Origin: Sphaerodactylus townsendi
Lineage: Eukaryota
Direction of reading: 5' to 3'
Length of the DNA: 64,000 nucleotides
Assembly (NCBI RefSeq): GCF_021028975.2
Contig: NC_059434.1
Location: forward strand, 48,360,001-48,424,000
The first letter of the stretch is position 1, and the number at the start of each line of letters is the position of its first letter. Below are positions 9,281 through 41,551 of this stretch, piece by piece. The position numbers and the translations under genes are program-made. The notes beneath the pieces were generated by a model. That model worked only from the letters and a program-made list of their open reading frames with translations. It made no database searches and had not been told where the DNA came from.

Positions 9281-10330
9281 GCAACCTCGTCTTTGTATCA
9301 CATGCATGAATATCAAGCAAATTCAAACTAGCCTCATACTTTAATGAAAGGACAAATAGGAGAGTTAAAATGTTCTTTATTCATTAATCAGCCTCATCCC
9401 TTCATAGCAAATGTACCTGTAACATGTAAGTACACATAGAAGGAGGAGCAGTCGGTCCTTGCTTCCCAAGGCATGCACTGTATATGATATGCTTGGTGAT
9501 TAATGTGCAGTTATTGTGCACATTATATTTCTCTGTATATACCAAGTTATTAGAATGAAATGTAATAGTATAATAGATGAAGTAGCACATGTGTAGGCAG
9601 ATAATAAGGGAGATAGTGGCTTTATCTGCACAGGACATTCTTGGTATACATAACAAAATATGTTTGTGCAAACAGATTGATGTTGACATCATGAATTCAG
9701 CAAAAGTTAACTCCATTTAGGCCATTCTCTAGACACAATGTAATTTTTTTTTCAAGTGTTGATTTTAGGGGGCTGAAAGTTTAATCAGTGAATTAAGATG
9801 CTCTTGTTATGCACATACAGAACATATGTTCACTAGTAGATGTTGGTGTTCTACCCAGTCAGCATTTCTTAATAAACCAGACTAGAGAAAAGTATCCATT
9901 ACTGCTGTACTCTTTCTAGCTCTTTAGTGTGCCTTTACCACTGGAGGACTTGCCTAGGGACAAGGGGTATCCCTTGTCCCCGGGCGCATCCATTGCAGTC
10001 ACGTGGGGGGCGCCAAAACATCCCCTCACGCAGACTGATTTTGGAAGCCCAAGCAAGCCCGGCATTCAGGAAGCGGCTGCTGAAAAAATTAAGGAAGCCT
10101 GACATAGCCCCGCCCACTCGCTACGGTGGCCCTGAGTGTCCAGAGGGCGGGGGAGAAATACCATTGTGCCTCCAGGAGGAGGACTGGAGAGCTCCGCCTC
10201 CCCTCCCTCTCGCCCAGAGTGCAGTGCCTTATTCTCCAGTAAGTCCTTGATGTTGCTCTCAAGCCTTCTCCCCAGCAGACAGGCGCCAGCCAGCACAGGA
10301 GAAGTCCATAGGCTGGCTAGGAAGGCAATC

Positions 10331-12085
10331 CCTGCCCCACAAGGTGTTTGTTGTGGGGAGAGGAAGGGAGGGCGCGTTTGTGAACTGTTTGGAGACTCCT
10401 TAAAGGTAATGTGCAAATCCAAACTGCACTTCTATCCATAAAATCTTGTTTGCAATTGTGAATGGCCTTGATTGGGTGTGTGTGGGGGCGGGGGGGGGGA
10501 GCGCCTGGCTTCTTAACTTTTGCTGTGGGGCTGGGCTGTAATCTGCAGAGTGAGTTTGATGCCCCACTTTCTCTGCCCCACAAGGTGCTTGCTGTGGGGA
10601 GAGGAAAGGGAGGGGGTGTTTGTTAGCTGTTTGGAGACTCCTTATAGGCAATGTATGAATCCAAACTGTTCTTCTATTCCTAAAATTTTGTTTGCTATTG
10701 TGAATAGCCTTAATATTAGAGGGGGGGGATGGAGCGCCTGGCTTCTTAACTTTTGCTGTGGGGCTGGGCTGTAATCTGCAGAGTGAGTTTGATGCCCCAC
10801 TTTCTCTGCCCCACAAGGTGCTTGCTGTGGGGAGAGGAAAGGGGGGGTGTTTGTTAGCTGTTTGGAGACTCCTTATAGGCAATGTATGAATCCAAACTGT
10901 TCTTCTATTCCTAAAATTTTGTTTGCAATTGTGAATAGCCTTAATATTAGAGGGGGGGGGATGGAGCGCCTGGCTTCTTAACTTTTGCTGTGGGGCTGGG
11001 CTGTAATCTGCAGAGTGAGTTTGATGCCCCACTTTCTCTGCCCCACAAGGTGCTTGCTGTGGGGAGAGGAAAGGGAGGGGGTGTTTGTTAGCTGTTTGGA
11101 GACTCCTTATAGGCAATGTATGTGTGGGGCTGGACTGGAATCTGCAGAGTGAGTTTGATGCCCCACTTTCTCTGCCCCACAAGGTGCTTGCTGTGGGGAG
11201 AGGAAAGGGGGGGGTGTTTGTTAGCTGTTTGGAGACTCCTTATAGGCAATGTATGAATCCAAACTGTTCTTCTATTCCTAAAATTTTGTTTGCTATTGTG
11301 AATAGCCTTAATATTAGATAGGAATGGAGCCTGGCTTCTTAACTTTTGCTGTGGGGCTGGGCTGTAATCTGCAGAGTGAGTTTGATGCCCCACTTTCTCT
11401 GCCCCACAAGGTGCTTGCTGTGGGGAGAGGAAAGGGAGGGGGTGTTTGTTAGCTGTTTGGAGACTCCTTATAGGCAATGTATGAATCCAAACTGTTCTTC
11501 TATTCCTAAAATTTTGTTTGCAATTGTGAATAGCCTTAATATTAGAGGGGGGGGGATGGAGCGCCTGGCTTCTTAACTTTTGCTGTGGGGCTGGGCTGTA
11601 ATCTGCAGAGTGAGTTTGATGCCCCACTTTCTCTGCCCCACAAGGTGCTTGCTGTGGGGAGAGGAAAGGGAGGGGGTGTTTGTTAGCTGTTTGGAGACTC
11701 CTTATAGGCAATGTATGAATCCAAACTGTTCTTCTATTCCTAAAATTTTGTTTGCAATTGTGAATAGCCTTAATATTGGGGTGGGGGGATGGAGCGCCTG
11801 GCTTCTTAACTTTTGCTGTGGGGCTGGGCTGTAATCTGCAGAGTGAGTTTGATGCCCCACTTTGTCTGCTTACAAGGGAGAGGAAAGGGGGGTGTTTGTT
11901 AGCTGTTTGGAGACTCCTTGTAGGCAATGTATGAATCCAAATTGTTCTTCTATTCCTAAAATCTTGTTTGCTATTGTGAATAGCCTTAATATGGGGGTGG
12001 AGCGCCTGGCTTCTTAACTTTTGCTGTGGGGCTGGGCTGTAATCTGCAGAGTGAGTTTGATGCCCCACTCTGTCTGCCCCACCTG
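10331..12085 (+). repeat. Tandem array of ~233-bp units (8 copies of the marker TGAGTTTGATGCCCCAC) inside hAT copy 1
   Basis: Marker at 10551, 10784, 11016, 11150, 11377, 11611, 11844 and 12052; spacings 233, 232, 134, 227, 234, 233, 208. Confidence 0.95.
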
Positions 12086-12149
12086 CTACCCTACAAGGGC
12101 AGGAAAGAGGGAGAGGAAGAAAGTGGGGAGAGGAAAGGAAGGCATTTGT

Positions 12150-12365
12150 TAGCTTGCAAACTCCTTTCCCTTCCTTTCTCCACAACAGACACCTTGTAAA
12201 GTAGGTGTGGCTGAGAGAGTTCAAAGAGAACTAGTTCAAGGTCACCAATCAGGCTTCATGTGTAGGAGGGGGAAAACAAATCCAGTTCATCAGATAAAGG
12301 TCCACCACTCATGTGGGAGGAGTAAGGAATCAAACCCAGTTTTCCATATTAGATGCCACCAGGCT
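12150..12365 (-). mobile_element. SINE fragment captured inside the composite hAT
   Basis: caaactcctttcccttcc...cacaacagacaccttgtaaagtaggtg...ggaatcaaacccagttttcc is a Squam3-like body. Also present in copy 2 at ~39705-39915. Confidence 0.75.
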
Positions 12366-14544
12366 GAAAAGGGCACATTCATTCATCTCTTTGCTGCATT
12401 ACACTTAGCACTAAATTACCTATAACATCAATTATGAGGGTCTCTTATGATTCTTTTGGATGTTTGTTTTAGACAGATTGTTGCCACGGGTGTTGGGAGC
12501 AGGTCCTCTCCAGAGCAGTGGCTGGTTGCTTAATTTGGAGGGGACAGGTTGGTCAATAAAGCAAAATAGAAGCTCTGATAGAAAGTCAATTTGTAGTGCA
12601 AAAAAAAAATATTTAGGGAATTGGTCAAACATCCATTTGTTTTCCCCTTCCTCAGCTGCTTTGGCTTTTGACAAAAGCATGAGGTTCCGATCTTCTGCAT
12701 CATGTGGTGGTGGAGCCCACTCTTTCTGGCCTTCAAGAGGGGACCTATCTCCATCTAGTCCAGCAATAAGTTTCCAGTACTAGCCAGCCAAATATATCAG
12801 ACCAACTCCTGAGCAGACCTTGTGAGTTACAGCAGTCCCAGTTCTCAGCATACTGTCAAGTGAAAAACTCAGAGGCACACTGGCAGAAAATGATGCCCAG
12901 GGCTAGACAAAAGTTTTCCACCCCTGCCCCCCGCCCCCTGCCCTGCCAGCACCGGGGGCAAGGCCTGGTTTTTCCACCACCCCCCATCAAGCCCCACTTA
13001 TGGCCTCCCTGTCAGCCATGGGGGCCATCCTTGTGCCTCAGCAGCCATGGCTCCCCACTCCAGACTCTTGTGGGGGCGGCAGGCCGCCCAGTCCCCATGC
13101 TTAACTCAGAAGGCCCTGCATCTTTGCCAGGCCGCCTCCACCTGGGCATGTCGTGGGGAGTTTGCAGGAAGGATAAACACTGTTTCTAAAAAATACCCAC
13201 CCACCCCTTCTACTACAGGTTTGTCTGGTAACAAGAACACTGGAACCTTGACACTTGTTTTAAAATGAGTAGAGTATAGGTAGAGGCACTACTGCAAGGT
13301 GGCAGATTTACCCCACATCAGATCCACAAAGATAAATGGGGAAAGCCTGCTATCCAAGGTACTTCAGCCAACTCACAGTTGTCTCTCTGATTTTCTTTCT
13401 TTGTTCAAACTGCCTTTGGGGGGAAGGTTCCGATGGGGGCGGTGATTTGTGAGAGATTTACATGCTTAAAAGTTAATTCCCACTTGCACTGGCTTGGAGC
13501 TGTTTCTGAGGCTAACAACCTACCTCATAGGGTTGGTGTGAGGACAAAATTAGGAAAGAGAGTTGGTGGGGAGAGCCATGTATGTTTTGCTGGTGGTGGG
13601 AGGTGTTTTGTGAGCTGGTACAAAAAATCATTGTTTGGTCGTTGTGGGGGAGGGTGGTCGTCCATACCGGGGGGGGGGGGCACCAAACTCAGATTTTGTC
13701 CCCGGGCTCCAGTTTGCCTAGATTCGCCCCTGGCCTTTACTGAGTACTGGGGCACATTTAATTAATTGAACTTACAGGTGACCACATCTCCAGAACTTGA
13801 GGCAGGGAACTCTATATCTACAATCCTGTGACTTTCCAATAAGTAAGTCCCATTTGAATTCAGTGGGCTTGCCTCTGAATGAACATATTTTTGATGGTAC
13901 CACCCAAAACTTCTGTGAATTTTTAGAAATGTTGTACGGCTTCAGGCGGACATACAGGCACAGACTTTGGCAGAGGAAGAGGATTCTGGACCAACAAATG
14001 ACAGTCACCAAGATTGCCTCTCTATGTATTTTGTGGTCATGATTTGTTAAACTGATGGTATTTTCATTGGAGTTTTGCTGGTTGATTTTAAAAATGGTGG
14101 CAGATTTTGCTGCAAGGAGTGGGATTATTATGGGAGGAAAGTGGTAGCTGCAGTAATGAAAGTTTTATACAATTCACTGAAGTGAACTCGTTTTTTCATG
14201 CCGTTTCCTGTTGTAGCTCTCTGTTTTTAAAGTCCAGGTCTCCTACTTTTGCAGGTGCTAGAGGAAAATGTTAGTGACAGCAACATTTTTTTTCTTTTTG
14301 TCTCTCTTTGGGGAGGGAAAGAGCAGTGCATGATCATAGCGTACACAGCAGGAAAGGATTTTAAAATGTAAACTATATAATGTTAACTATGTTCTACATG
14401 TCAAGATATTGAGACACCAAGGTAAACTTTTTCTGCACCCAGAATTATAAAGCCGGCTACTGAATTGGTCCAATCGGCAACAAATTTAAACCTCGTGAAA
14501 ACTAAATATTTAAAAACTGAGAAGCATTTTTTTTCTTTTATTAG

Positions 14545-14776
14545 GGGAACTACTTGAAAGCCTGTGAATATTTTGATGAGGCATTTTGTGCAGCAAATGT
14601 TCTTGCTGATTTGCCTCTAGTGAATGAAACAAAGGTATTCTGTGGCATTGGGAAAGCTCATAACATGATGATGAAAGTTACCAGTCATACAGAAGCTGCG
14701 GATCACATCGGCATTGAATACCTGCTGGATTGGAAGGGAAATAGAAGTGACATGTGCGCTGACCCTTTTACAGTTG
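14545..14776 (+). CDS. TTC29: TTC29 internal coding exon, 232 nt
   Basis: Acceptor tttttctttttattAG (14543-14544) and donor GTAAG at 14777. Translates GNYLKACEYFDEAFCAANVLADLPLVNETKVFCGIGKAHNMMMKVTSHTEAADHIGIEYLLDWKGNRSDMCADPFTV, matching the TTC29 C-terminal region as recalled (ETKVHYGIAKAHQMM...YLLSWKESR...DP). In frame with the preceding exon. Confidence 0.93.
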
Positions 14777-36652: not shown

Positions 36653-38099
36653 CAGGGACGTAGGTATAGATTTTTTAGGGGGGGTTCAGGGTGGGGCCAC
36701 ACCCCACCCGCCCCTAGGGCATGGCCACGCCTCCCCAACCCCCGCCTCTGGCCTAGCGCTTATAAAAGCAGCTCTCCGAGGTCGGGGATGGCAGACTCCC
36801 CTGCCTTCCCTGCCCTGCCTCTCCCCTCTGGGCAGAGGCATAGAGGGAAAATGGAGCCCGGTGCAAAATCTGAGTTTTGCACCCCCCACCCCCACCCAGG
36901 CAGCCGCTGTGATGCTGGAATCCACCCCCAAACAGCATCACTTTCAACGGTGTTTGAAAACTAGAGAGCCCAAATTCTCCTTTTAAATCCACCTTAAAGG
37001 GAGAATCTGGGGTCCCTAGTTAAACAACATTGAAAGTGATGCTGTTTTGGGGTGGATTATCCCCCACCCTGAAACAGCATCACTTTCAATGTGGCGTAGT
37101 GGTTAAGAGCAGGTGCATTCTAATCTGGAGGAACCGGGTTTGATTCCCTGCTCTGCCGCTTGAGCTGTGGAGGCTTATCTGGGGAATTCAGATTAGCCTG
37201 TGCACTCCCACACACGCCAGCTGGGTGACCTTGGACTAGTCACAGCTTTTCGGAGCTCTCTCAGCCCCACCCACCTCACAGGGTGTTTGTTGTGAGGGAG
37301 CAAGGGCAAGGAGATTGTAAGCCCCTTTGAGTCTCCTACAGGAGAGAAAGGGGGGATATAAATCCAAACTCTTCTTCTTCTTCTAAACTGAGGACCTCAG
37401 ATTCTCCCTTTAAATCCATGCCAAAGGGGGTGGATTTAAAAGGAGAATCTGGGTAAATTTGGGGGGTGCCTACTGTCAGGGGTGCAATGGTTAAGCTAGA
37501 AGCACCAAAATTTCAGGGTATCTTTAGGAGTCTCTCCTAATGATACCACCCAGGTTTGGTGAAGTTTGGTTCAAGGGGTCCAAAGTTATGGACCCTCAAA
37601 GGTGTAGCCCCCAGCTCCTATTAGCTCCCATTGGAAACAATGGGGGATGGGAGCACCCTTTTGGGAGTCCATGGCTTTGGACTCCCTGGACCAAATTTCA
37701 CAAAACATGGGTGGTATCAATAAGAGACTCTCCTGATAGTACATCCCAGGTTTGGTGAAGTTTGGTTCAGGGGGTCCAACGTTATGGACCCTCAAAGGTA
37801 TAGCCCCCATCTTCTATTAGCTCCCATTGGAAACAATGGAGGATGGGGCACCCCCTTTTGGAGTCCATAACTTTGGACCCCCTGAACCAAACCTCACCAA
37901 ACCCAGGTATTATCATCAGGAGAGTCCCCCAAACAATCTCTGAAAGTTTAGTGCTGCTAGCCCAAAAAAATGCGCCCCCTGCAGGCCAAAAACTGAAAAA
38001 GAACTAAAATGTTTTTAAAACCCACAAACGGGTGGGCGAAGCTTCGGACATGAATGGGGGGGTTCAAACCCGAGAAACCTCCCCTTACCTACGTCCATG
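36653..38099. mobile_element. Non-autonomous hAT element built from alternating inverted modules
   Basis: TIR CAGGGACGTAGGTA ... TACCTACGTCCATG. TSD GTTCGGAG (36645-36652) / GTTCAGAG (38100-38107). Confidence 0.88.
37091..37384 (+). mobile_element. Squam3-like tRNA-derived SINE inserted in the hAT element
   Basis: A box TGGCGTAGTGG, B box GGTTTGATTCCC and (CTT)n tail. Near-identical copies at 48341-48648 and 58617-58927. Confidence 0.9.
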
Positions 38100-38336: not shown

Positions 38337-41300
38337 CAGGGGCGAATCTAGGCAAACTGGAGCCCGGGGACAAAATCTGAGTTTGGTGCCCCCCCCCCGG
38401 TATGGACGACCACCCTCCCCCACAACGACCAAACAATGATTTTTTGTACCAGCTCACAAAACACCTCCCACCACCAGCAAAACATACATGGCTCTCCCCA
38501 CCAACTCTCTTTCCTAATTTTGTCCTCACACCAACCCTATGAGGTAGGTTGTTAGCCTCAGAAACAGCTCCAAGCCAGTGCAAGTGGGAATTAACTTTTA
38601 AGCATGTAAATCTCTCACAAATCACCGCCCCCATCGGAACCTTCCCCCCAAAGGCAGTTTGAACAAAGAAAGAAAATCAGAGAGACAACTGTGAGTTGGC
38701 TGAAGTACCTTGGATAGCAGGCTTTCCCCATTTATCTTTGTGGATCTGATGTGGGGTAAATCTGCCACCTTGCAGTAGTGCCTCTACCTATACTCTACTC
38801 ATTTTAAAACAAGTGTCAAGGTTCCAGTGTTCTTGTTACCAGACAAACCTGTAGTAGAAGGGGTGGGTGGGTATTTTTTAGAAACAGTGTTTATCATTCC
38901 TGCAAACTCCCCACGACATGCCCAGGTAGAGACGGCCTGGCAAAGATGCAGGGCCTTCTGAGTTAAGCATGGGGACTGGGCGGCCTGCCCCCCCCAAAGC
39001 CCCCAGAGTCTGGAGTGGGGAGCCATGGCTTCTGAGGCGCATGGATGGCCCCCGCAGCTGACAGGGAAACCATAAGTGGGGCTTGATGGGGGGTGGAAAA
39101 ACCAGGTCTTGCCCCCAGTGCTGGCTGGGCATGGAGCAGGGGTGGGGCAGGGGTGGAAAACTCTTGTCTTGCCCTGGGCATCATTTTCTGCCAGTGTGCC
39201 TCTGAGTTTTTCACTTGACAGTATGCTGAGAATAGGGACTGCTGTAACTCACAAGGTCTGCTCAGGAGTTGGTCTGATGTATTTGGCTGGCTAATACTGG
39301 AAACTAATTGCTGGACTAGATGGAGATAGGTCCCCTCTTGAAGGCCAGAAAGAGTGGGCTCCACCACCACATGATGCAGAAGATCGGAACCTCATGCTTT
39401 TGTCAAAAGCCAAAGCAGCTGAGGAAGGGGGAAAACAAATGGATGTTTGACCAATTCCCCTAAATATTTTTTTTGCACTACAAATTGACTTTCTATCAGA
39501 GCTTCTATTTTGCTTTATTGACCAACCTGTCCCCTCCAAATTAAGCAACCAGCCACTGCTCTGGAGAGGACCTGCTCCCAACACCCGTGGCAACAATCTG
39601 TCTAAAACAAACATCCAAAAGAATCATAAAGGCCTCTGATAATTGATGTTATAGGTAATTTAGTGCTAAGTGTACGGCAAAGATGAATGAATGTGCCCTT
39701 TTCAGCCTGGTGGCATCTAATATGGAAAACTGGGTTTGATTCCTTACTCCTCCACATGAGTGGTGGACCTTTATCTGATGAACTGGATTTGTTTCCCCCT
39801 CCTACACATGAAGCCTGATTGGTGACCTTGAACTAGTTCTCTTTGAACTCTCTCAGCCACACCTACTTTACAAGGTGTCTGTTGTGGAGAAAGGAAGGGA
39901 AAGGAGTTTGCAAGCTAACAAATGCCTTCCTTTCCTCTCCCCACTTTCTTCCTCTCCCTCTTCTGCTCCTGCTCCCTTGTAGGGTAGCAGGTGGGGCAGA
40001 CAGAGTGGGGCATCAAACTCACTCTGCAGATTACAGCCCAGCCCCACAGCAAAAGTTAAGAAGCCAGGCGCTCCATCCCCCCCCTAATATTAAGGCTATT
40101 CACAATAGCAAACAAAATTTTAGGAATAGAAGAACAGTTTGGATTCATACATTGCCTATAAGGAGTCTCCAAACAGCTAACAAACACCCCCTCCCTTTCC
40201 TCTCCCCACAGCAAGCACCTTGTGGGGCAGAGAAAGTGGGGCATCAAACTCACTCTGCAGATTACAGCCCAGCCCCACAGCAAAAGTTAAGAAGCCAGGC
40301 GCTCCATCCCCCCCCCCCCCTCTAATATTAAGGCTATTCACAATTGCAAACAAAATTTTAGGAATAGAAGAACAGTTTGGATTCATACATTGCCTACAAG
40401 GAGTCTCCAAACAGCTAACAAACACCCCCCTTTCCTCTCCCTTGTGGGGCAGACAAAGTGGGGCATCAAACTCACTCTGCAGATTACAGCCCAGCCCCAC
40501 AGCAAAAGTTAAGAAGCCAGGCGCTCCATCCCCCCACCCCAATATTAAGGCTATTCACAATTGCAAACAAAATTTTAGGAATAGAAGAACAGTTTGGATT
40601 CATACATTGCCTATAAGGAGTCTCCAAACAGCTAACAAACACCCCCTCCCTTTCCTCTCCCCACAGCAAGCACCTTGTGGGGCAGAGAAAGTGGGGCATC
40701 AAACTCACTCTGCAGATTACAGCCCAGCCCCACAGCAAAACTTAAGAAGCCAGGCGCTCCATCCCCCCCCCCTCTAATATTAAGGCTATTCACAATAGCA
40801 AACAAAATTTTAGGAATAGAAGAACAGTTTGGATTCATACATTGCCTATAAGGAGTCTCCAAACAGCTAACAAACACCCCCCTTTCCTCCCCACAGCAAG
40901 CACCTTGTGGGGCAGAGAAAGTGGGGCATCAAACTCACTCTGCAGATTACACCCCAGCCCCACAGCAAAAGTTAAGAAGCCAGGCGCCCCCCCCCCCCCC
41001 GCCCCCACACACACCCAATCAAGGCCATTCACAATTGCAAACAAGATTTTATGGATAGAAGTGCAGTTTGGATTTGCACATTACCTTTAAGGAGTCTCCA
41101 AACAGTTCACAAACGCGCCCTCCCTTCCTCTCCCCACAACAAACACCTTGTGGGGCAGGGATTGCCTTCCTAGCCAGCCTATGGACTTCTCCTGTGCTGG
41201 CTGGCGCCCGTCTGCTGGGGAGAAGGCTTGAGAGCAACATCAAGGACTTACTGGAGAATAAGGCACTGCACTCTGGGCGAGAGGGAGGGGAGGCGGAGCT

Positions 41301-41551
41301 CTCCAGTCCTCCTCCTGGAGGCACAATGATATTTCTCCCCCGCCCTCTGGACACTCAGGGCCACCGTAGCGAGTGGGCGGGGCTATGTCAGGCTTCCTTA
41401 ATTTTTTCAGCAGCCGCTTCCTGAATGCCGGGCTTGCTTGGGCTTCCAAAATCAGTCTGCGTGAGGGGATGTTTTGGCGCCCCCCACGTGACTGCAATGG
41501 ATGCGCCCGGGGACAAGGGGTACCCCTTGTCCCTAGGCAAGTCCGCCAGTG
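38337..41551 (-). mobile_element. Composite non-autonomous hAT-type transposon, copy 2 (3215 bp), inverted relative to copy 1
   Basis: End-to-end reverse complement of 9939-13732. Begins CAGGGGCGAATCTAGG and ends CAAGTCCGCCAGTG. Flanks CCTATAGG / CTGACGGT do not form a TSD. Confidence 0.92.
39990..41160 (-). repeat. Tandem array of ~233-bp units (5 marker copies) inside hAT copy 2
   Basis: Marker CATCAAACTCAC at 40011, 40242, 40464, 40697 and 40927. Confidence 0.95.

What the first reader, a model, noticed from the sequence alone, without database searches (positions are those of the whole stretch)
10331..12085. The 233-bp array unit appears to be built from a SINE 3' body
Seen: the unit segment ccccacaaggtg(c/t)ttg(c/t)tgtggggagaggaaagggag...ttgttagctgtttggagactcctt...aatccaaact..tcttct aligns by eye with the SINE tail at 37275-37380 (cctcacagggtgtttgttgtgagggagcaagggcaaggagattgtaagcccctttgagtctcct...aaatccaaactcttcttc). 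The first, more diverged unit at 10331 is closest to the SINE. Inference: a SINE inserted in the transposon, its tail plus flank was tandemly amplified, and transposition now spreads a nascent satellite.
Basis: partly seen in the sequence, partly recalled or inferred. Interest (0 to 1): 0.7.

Follow-up and report, generated by a model that had tools for sequence, protein, structure and literature searches.

The report
SINE-promoter repeat riding a DNA transposon
A 233-base tandem repeat, made mostly of pieces of a common lizard SINE plus about 60 bases that match a host CpG island elsewhere in the genome, lies inside DNA-transposon copies at all 146 sites examined, in runs of at most 12 units; it likely arose when the transposon captured host DNA, and it is a transposon-spread seed rather than a true satellite.

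Summary
The SINE match is real (70/97 and 80/105 identical to the SINE at 37091, z 15-19). The unit is more than a tail. It is a mosaic: about 106 bp of Squam3B-type 3' end, a 38-bp SINE head with box B, and about 60 bp matching a CpG island on contig C4. That locus carries no transposon ends and also matches 1.3 kb of the element's interior (90%). The array lies in a 3.8-kb non-autonomous hAT-like element with 8-bp target duplications (34 of 35 clean-ended copies); the site is empty in two related organisms. All 146 unit-bearing loci examined lie in this carrier or in a second MITE that took up its left part. Old copies hold 0-2 units (one has 5), young copies 1-12. No free-standing or long array and no SINE-free copy was found. 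The first unit is not closest to the SINE. The SINE piece is about 15% from consensus while the cargo is 5-6% from its source, so it was likely copied in as an old fossil during capture, not freshly inserted. Verdict: a new variant combining three known kinds.

The parts
9931..9938 (+). left 8-bp target-site duplication of element A
   Evidence: identical to 13733-13740; one copy only in empty-site contigs of two related organisms
9939..13732 (+). element A: 3794-bp non-autonomous hAT-like transposon, in an intron-like position about 0.8 kb before a TTC29-like exon
   Evidence: 8-bp TSD; imperfect short terminal repeats; longest stop-free frames 279 and 380 codons, not scanned for domains; exon 14545-14775 matches TTC29, E 4e-16
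9939..10018 (+). left end (about 50-80 bp) shared with other small elements that have unrelated interiors
   Evidence: 18 of 26 loci fetched for the left-end motif alone align over about the first 40-80 bp only, and none carries the unit next to that end
10302..10327 (+). 26-bp piece of the C4 host locus (just upstream of a candidate start codon on the other strand)
   Evidence: 24/26 here, 26/26 in the oldest copies L142 and L167
10329..10569 (+). unit 1, the diverged first-position variant found at the same position in other young copies
10570..11862 (+). middle units 2-7 (227-234 bp; unit 4 at 11035-11168 truncated to 134 bp)
10565..10676 (+). within unit 2: Squam3B-type SINE 3' body, LINE-derived region (9 nt short) and start of the CTT-type tail
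   Evidence: profile positions 177-304, E 3e-18
10690..10745 (+). within unit 2: piece matching the C4 CpG island (L199:2567-2631)
   Evidence: 77-80% over 65 bp in unit 1 and in old copies, E 2e-10 to 3e-9; 68% in middle units; also present in an older copy of that island on C5
10765..10802 (+). within unit 2: SINE head fragment with box B, joined to the SINE body at a 3-4-nt overlap
   Evidence: 35/38 to consensus in the oldest copies, 33/38 in old, 30/37 in young
11863..12070 (+). unit 8, last-position variant with a 19-bp deletion
12071..12154 (+). trailing partial unit, fused at a shared AGCT (12151-12154) to an inverted SINE
   Evidence: sequence
12150..12363 (-). inverted older-subfamily SINE, 3' end missing here but complete at the C4 locus
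   Evidence: profile positions 30-248 here versus 25-299 at L199
12181..13466 (+). captured host DNA matching L199:2832-4156 (G000:C4:30508331-30509655)
   Evidence: 89.9% over 1337 columns; group masters 5-6% from the source
13441..13732 (+). right arm shared with a related element (L092); overlaps the host match by about 25 bp
13733..13740 (+). right 8-bp target-site duplication
38337..41551 (-). element B, second copy with a 5-unit array (39991-41161); no target-site duplication
   Evidence: not the sister of A

Best explanation
The array is cargo of a non-autonomous hAT-like transposon, and its 233-bp unit is a mosaic of an old Squam3B-type SINE and host CpG-island DNA that was likely stitched together by template switching while the transposon captured host sequence. 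Shown: the interior carries three collinear pieces (26 bp, about 65 bp, 1.3 kb) of one locus on C4 that has no transposon ends; between them lie SINE pieces that this locus lacks; one 65-bp stretch of a single SINE copy occurs twice, about 340-350 bp apart, in the oldest elements. Inferred: copying alternated between the C4 locus and a second, unfound SINE-bearing locus and read that stretch twice, creating the direct repeat. A 103-bp loss between two 6-bp repeats then shortened the period to about 233-245 bp (long form seen in 3 old copies). Unequal exchange or slippage between the direct repeats likely adds and removes units (0-12 seen; hybrid zero-unit copies exist; position-specific variants are duplicated or displaced). 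Transposition disperses the array (8-bp target duplications, empty sites in relatives), and a second MITE took up the left part with about one unit and spread it too. No function is proposed; it would be selfish cargo, at most a seed from which a satellite could grow.
For: SINE homology of body and head. Host source L199: 89-92% over about 1.3 kb, 26/26 and 52/65 short pieces in the same order and strand, CpG o/e 0.6-0.96, no end motif of this element at the borders of the match; the 270 bp between the short pieces occur in no element, only there and in an older 69-70% copy on C5. The host match ends in about 25 bp shared with the right arm of a related element, as expected for template switching in Pack-TIRs (PMC8277862, passages). 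Leading and trailing SINE stretches share a 3-nt insertion found in 0 of 60 free SINEs, so they are copies of one SINE. SINE piece 17 mismatches in 110 plus gaps from consensus, best free SINE 97/116, against 5-6% for the cargo. 8-bp TSD in 34 of 35 clean-ended copies, 0 of 1190 cross-pairs (13 of 48 were not scored because an end did not fit the motif). Empty site in one contig each of runs X4 and X6, filled site in X1. Units per element: young 49, median 4, range 1-12; old 22, median 2, range 0-5; Mann-Whitney p 3e-9, copies not independent. Head identity falls from 35/38 to 30/37 from oldest to young copies. Second carrier: 20 of 27 with both ends have a TSD with at most 1 mismatch.
Against: The second donor locus was not found: its linker matches only the three old element copies. 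No intermediate element (host cargo without the SINE pieces) was found, so one-step template switching and SINE insertion followed by rearrangement cannot be told apart directly. The age argument is weakened by a free SINE (L220) whose short tail is identical to the unit's over 19 bases, so a minor source lineage may exist and the 15% may overstate age. The C4 SINE has the same 9-nt-short tail (about 15 free copies of this form against 3118 of the long form) yet is only 64-68% like the unit there; this is unexplained. The C4 locus has itself changed since (22-bp gap, altered SINE stretch). About 280 bp of the left arm have no source found. No autonomous partner was found. Many copies show indel-rich interiors that look like assembly error, and outgroup rooting of the tree failed.
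Confidence: 0.68

Rival explanations
1. One reading: the element first captured the C4 DNA, a SINE then retrotransposed into it, and later deletions and a duplication inside the element made the unit.
For: SINEs do insert into copies of this element (L003, L019, L044, L063, L073, L194). A head-to-body SINE facing an inverted SINE and fused to it at the homologous AGCT looks like the collapse of an inverted pair. A free SINE with the same short tail exists.
Against: No SINE-free or single-SINE copy among 128 left arms. The sequence after the SINE tail in the oldest copies (about 60 bp plus the 3' 41 nt of yet another inverted SINE) is not C4 sequence, as it should be after an insertion into the cargo. 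The SINE piece is about three times more diverged than the cargo.
Confidence: 0.22
2. The unit is an older, independent satellite that the transposon picked up ready-made.
For: Pattern searches list only the first 100 matches, so 80 of 180, 24 of 124 and 87 of 187 matches were not seen; satellites are often missing from assemblies.
Against: All 75 of 75 exact matches of a young-unit 23-mer fall in fetched carrier loci. 146 of 146 unit-bearing loci have carrier sequence (L190 as the far half of L146 across an LTR-type insertion). Old copies have the fewest units and 3 keep a longer ancestral form. The unlisted spacer matches are in proportion to the unlisted part of the genome (100 of 180 listed over about 59% of the bases).
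Confidence: 0.04
3. The long arrays are assembly artefacts; real elements hold only 2-4 units.
For: Several loci have indel-rich or homopolymer-junk stretches (L112, L189); no raw long reads could be laid.
Against: Units within A and L001 differ by diagnostic bases shared with units in other loci; A and L001, both long, group together in two trees (support 92/83 and 0.83). This rival touches array length only, not unit origin.
Confidence: 0.06

Closest known systems
SINE-derived satellites sSat3 of squamates, e.g. sSat3Gja1, sSat3Ppi1, sSat3Ati1 (PMC10702118; main text parts 1-4 of 5 read)
   Same: Tandem unit shorter than the SINE and built from Squam3 parts, with extra non-SINE sequence; distinct terminal units; short arrays with variable unit number.
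   Different: Here the unit joins head and 3' end with the middle missing and includes host CpG-island DNA; it is dispersed by DNA transposons (the paper's main text has no 'hAT', 'MITE' or 'inverted'); no subtelomeric bias; at most 12 units. By its methods (fragments of at least 20% of the SINE, merged if under 100 bp apart) these arrays would likely be missed, since the 3' fragments lie about 128 bp apart (inference).
Multicopy Pack-TIRs of animals, e.g. Pack-hAT-N8_XT and the FoSTeST model (PMC8277862; passages read)
   Same: Terminal-repeat element carrying GC-rich host DNA from a distant parent locus, short homology at a breakpoint, later amplification by transposition.
   Different: The cargo here is discontinuous, interleaved with SINE pieces, and contains a direct repeat that grew into a tandem array; at least 72 full-type copies rather than a few.
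Tandem repeats riding in non-autonomous DNA transposons: DTC84 of Donax (PMC3879986, abstract), Tetris TIR-220 (PMC4079207, abstract), Xstir/Xmix and miDNA4 of Xenopus (seen only as passages of the reviews PMC9659126 and PMC6947457)
   Same: Short internal arrays with position-fixed variants and variable copy number, spread by transposition; proposed seeds of satellites.
   Different: Their units are not described there as SINE-derived; Tetris and miDNA4 units also form long satellite arrays, which were not found here.

Membership tests
Squam3B-type SINE (origin of unit) | tRNA-derived head with box B | tested here: met
   38-bp fragment, 31 identities, 0 of 1000 shuffles; by eye 29 of 31 (oldest copies) to the published gecko Squam3B head
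Squam3B-type SINE (origin of unit) | CORE remnant and L2-like 3' region of the B type | tested here: met
   profile E 1e-17 to 1e-21 for the B-type models; only one hit (E 1e-4) with the A-type model; 31 of 32 by eye to published Squam3B
Squam3B-type SINE (origin of unit) | 11-nt insertion that defines subfamily B | tested here: inconclusive
   that part of the body is missing from the unit
Squam3B-type SINE (origin of unit) | (CTT)n tail | tested here: met
   start of the tail kept in middle units, decayed in unit 1
sSat3 SINE-derived satellite | tandem unit made of SINE parts, shorter than the SINE | tested here: met
   about 144 of 233 bp SINE-derived
sSat3 SINE-derived satellite | at least four middle monomers | tested here: met
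   met at A; 11 of 71 full-type elements have 6 or more units
sSat3 SINE-derived satellite | subtelomeric preference of longer loci | tested here: not met
   0 of the 10 single arrays of 7-12 units lie within 5% of a contig end
sSat3 SINE-derived satellite | identity with a published gecko sSat3 variant | not testable with these tools
   the paper's sequence supplements (.rtf.doc) could not be read; unit lengths in the text (126-151 nt) differ from 233
proper satellite DNA | long head-to-tail arrays, outside a mobile carrier | tested here: not met
   maximum 12 units; 146 of 146 loci in carriers; unassembled heterochromatin not testable
hAT non-autonomous element | 8-bp target-site duplication | tested here: met
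   34 of 35, control 0 of 1190
hAT non-autonomous element | short terminal inverted repeats | tested here: met
   imperfect: 11 of 13 in old copies, 8 of 13 in young copies, 7 of 13 in A
hAT non-autonomous element | autonomous partner with the same ends and a hAT transposase | tested here: inconclusive
   73 hAT dimerisation-domain matches in the genome; the 12 fetched 3.2-kb loci gave two isolated short motif hits and no matching end, but may be too short to reach the ends
Pack-TIR (Pack-hAT) | captured non-transposon host DNA with a parent locus elsewhere | tested here: met
   L199 on C4, 89-92% over about 1.3 kb plus two short pieces
Pack-TIR (Pack-hAT) | short homology at capture breakpoints | tested here: met
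   about 25 bp at the right junction, 4 bp at the SINE-SINE junction; no chance model was run
Pack-TIR (Pack-hAT) | captured piece belongs to a gene | tested here: inconclusive
   CpG island with a candidate 30-codon first exon and splice donor; no match in PDB or Pfam, nor for 78 of 144 downstream frames scanned

The most novel reading that the evidence does not exclude
Host-DNA capture by a hAT element manufactured a new SINE-promoter hybrid repeat in one template-switching event, and transposition (here by two successive carriers) rather than concerted evolution is what gives a SINE-derived repeat the same unit at many unlinked sites. Some published gecko and teiid sSat3 variants with 'regions of unknown origin' may have arisen and spread the same way, and this family catches the process at the 1-to-12-unit stage with its ancestral states still in the genome.
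Probability: 0.3. Interest if true: 0.65.

Novelty: new variant of a known kind. Interest (0 to 1): 0.45.

Why it matters
SINE-derived tandem repeats of lizards are described, but how one unit comes to be shared by many loci is open. This family gives a dated series in one genome: a likely source locus, a 340-350-bp ancestral period, a 233-bp derived unit, old copies with 1-2 units, young copies with up to 12, and an empty site in relatives. About 50 near-identical young insertions with different unit numbers are a natural replicate experiment on the first steps of array growth. No effect on the host gene is shown.

Tried and rejected
1) 'The inverted SINE was split in two by the array': the 41-nt inverted tail in the three oldest copies completes the inverted SINE by position (profile 253-293 versus 28-248), but the C4 source shows that SINE with a different tail, so the 41 nt come from another copy; rejected. 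2) Zero-unit copies as the ancestral state: L126 has first-unit bases on the left and the trailing junction on the right, so it is likely a collapse; rejected. 3) Local hopping from A to B: they are not sisters (A-B 2.1% apart, B-L004 0.6%); rejected. 4) Rooting the element tree on the SINE consensus was pulled to an error-rich copy; polarity was taken from head identity and the long ancestral form instead. 5) L220 as the second donor: same short tail but a different flank; rejected. 6) Contig depth as a test for hidden satellite: spacer bins were about 1-3.5 times the left-arm bins in X1 and X2, no sign of a large excess, but the tool states this depth is no copy number, so it is not used as evidence. 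7) No RNA holder listed. 8) Autonomous partner: not found. 9) Gene at the C4 island: not identified. 10) The 85-bp spacer has no SINE similarity on either strand (138-350 of 500 shuffles score as high). 11) Literature: 8 searches found no report of a SINE-derived array carried in a DNA transposon; the library lacks most subscription papers, and the sSat sequence supplements were unreadable. 12) Earlier notes near this place or like this unit: none. One young, left-truncated copy (L053, 2 units) was binned with the old group.

Full report
Observation. The window holds an array of 232-234-bp period at 10329-12082 and an inverted one at 39991-41161. The first ~105 bp of each unit align with the SINE at 37091-37384: 70 identities and 27 mismatches for unit 1, 80 and 25 for unit 2, z 11-19 against 300 shuffles per test. 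I built profiles from SINE copies in unrelated flanks. The older local subfamily (19 copies) fits best, E 4e-17 for unit 1 and 1e-17 for a middle unit; the young subfamily to which 37091 belongs fits less well, E 1e-11 to 3e-12. By eye 10338-10369 matches the published Squam3B consensus at 31 of 32 positions (PMC7983390, supplement passage). The claim that unit 1 is closest fails: 64 versus 77-79 against the named SINE, 99 versus 96-98 against the older consensus.

The unit is more than a tail. Its last 38 bp match the SINE head with box B (0 of 1000 shuffles against the older consensus; weaker, 21-27 of 1000, against the SINE at 37091). Identity of this head is 35/38 in the oldest copies, 33/38 in old and 30/37 in young copies. 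The 85 bp between tail and head are not SINE-like.

The carrier. Array A lies in a 3794-bp element (9939-13732) flanked by an 8-bp duplication. Of 48 copies with both ends in view, 35 had ends clean enough to score; 34 have a duplication with at most one mismatch, against 0 of 1190 cross-pairs; the exception is copy B of this window. Terminal repeats are short and imperfect (11 of 13 in old copies, 8 of 13 in young). One contig each from runs X4 and X6 (organisms B and D, coded) joins 9930 to 13733, the empty site, while X1 bridges both junctions of the filled site. The element is hAT-like by its 8-bp duplication (family knowledge, recalled); no autonomous partner was found. An exon 0.8 kb downstream matches TTC29.

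Genome survey. All 75 exact matches of a 23-mer of the young unit lie in loci I fetched. Looser patterns gave 180, 124 and 187 matches, of which only the first 100 each were listed; I fetched the listed sites not yet covered. In all, 146 unit-bearing loci were examined: 72 of the full type, 69 of a second type and 5 truncated or interrupted. In the second type the left arm, about one unit and 78 bp of the next sit inside another MITE with its own 8-bp duplications (20 of 27 with both ends). Every locus has carrier sequence; L190 counts as the far half of L146 across an LTR-type insertion. Of 128 left arms that reach the junction, 126 are followed at once by the SINE-derived unit and two have a garbled or interrupted first unit; none is SINE-free. 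Young elements (0.2-2% from their master) hold 1-12 units, median 4 (n 49); old ones (1-5.5%) hold 0-5, median 2 (n 22). First, middle and last units are distinct variants kept across loci, with local duplications and displacements. None of the ten longest single arrays is within 5% of a contig end.

Ancestral state. Three old copies (L058, L142, L167) have 103 extra bases in the spacer, bounded by a 6-bp direct repeat, that hold a non-SINE linker and the last 41 nt of an inverted SINE (38/41 to consensus); the period there is 336-353 bp in L142 and L167. Leading and trailing SINE stretches share a 3-nt insertion absent from 60 free SINEs, so the seed is one 65-bp stretch of one SINE copy present twice.

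Source of the cargo. A locus on C4 (L199) matches 12181-13466 at 89.9%, and old copies at up to 92%. It also holds, in the same order and strand, the last 26 bp of the left arm (26/26 in the oldest copies) and 65 bp of the unit's spacer (80%, E 2e-10). It is a CpG island with a candidate first exon on the other strand; the gene was not identified. It has no end motif of the element at the borders of the match, its inverted SINE is complete, and the match stops in about 25 bp shared with the right arm of a related element. The 270 bp between the two short pieces occur in no element but do occur, with the 65-bp piece, in an older 69-70% copy of the island on C5. Group masters are 5-6% from this source, while the unit's SINE piece is 15% plus gaps from the SINE consensus and 16% from the best free copy.

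Mechanism. Shown: mosaic unit, host source, single-SINE origin of the seed repeat, longer ancestral form, transposition, growth in the young burst. Inferred: the order host - SINE block - host - SINE head and body - host is most simply one capture that switched between two templates, as proposed for multicopy Pack-TIRs (PMC8277862, passages); the 103-bp loss removed one arm of a weak inverted pair; unequal exchange between the direct repeats changes unit number. Against: the second donor is not in the assembly; no intermediate was found; a free SINE shares the unit's short tail; the C4 SINE also has a 9-nt-short tail, rare among free copies, which I cannot explain. I give this route 0.68 and SINE insertion followed by rearrangement 0.22.

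Comparison. SINE-derived satellites of squamates are known (PMC10702118; parts 1-4 of 5 of the main text read; its .rtf and .doc supplements with the gecko sequences could not be read and may bear on novelty). Arrays riding in MITEs are known (PMC3879986 and PMC4079207, abstracts; PMC9659126 and PMC6947457, passages). PMC7983390 was read in parts 1-2 of 4, with part 1 of supplement 1 and passages of supplements 2-4. Eight searches found no report of the combination. It works like an sSat3 seed inside a Pack-hAT; it fails the tests for a proper satellite. Novelty: new variant of a known kind. Interest 0.45.

Noticed in passing
window 38337-41551 and flanks: Copy B has no target-site duplication; its left flank is a decayed LINE reverse-transcriptase fragment that does not continue on the other side, which suggests an adjacent deletion or a recombinant.
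   Followed up: partly
window 14545-14775: Exon matching TTC29 (E 4e-16); element A lies about 0.8 kb upstream of it.
   Followed up: partly
window 36829-37929: Another small element with a related end (36829-36897), holding the SINE at 37091 and a 196-bp dimer at 37517-37902.
   Followed up: no
L011 and L018 (G000:C11, about 70 kb apart, opposite strands): Sister copies in the left-arm tree (98/90) but not in the longer tree; possible local hop.
   Followed up: partly
L055, L136, L026: Head-to-tail double elements (L055, L136) and a partial duplication of the left arm inside the array (L026).
   Followed up: no
L201:3756-4560 (G000:C5, near 69.92 Mb): Older, CpG-depleted copy (69-70%) of about 1 kb of the same C4 CpG island; it may be a separate, earlier capture of that promoter.
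   Followed up: partly
L032, L034, L035, L037, L064, L128: Several second-carrier copies share the same downstream flank, so they were multiplied again inside a larger repeat.
   Followed up: no
L036:1760-2060, L202:1750-2100: Free SINEs with three or four tandem copies of the 53-bp head module; the local B-type subfamilies have two, which the published consensus rows I saw do not show.
   Followed up: no
L211:1690-3020: A tandem run of about ten units with a period near 142 bp, made from a small hairpin-type repeat.
   Followed up: no
L112 and L113 (G000:C2, 46 kb apart); L189:1420 onward: Inverted duplicated flanks, and long poly-C or poly-G runs that look like assembly junk.
   Followed up: no
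L085:1033-2631 (-): 533-codon stop-free frame next to a left-end motif; no Pfam match.
   Followed up: partly
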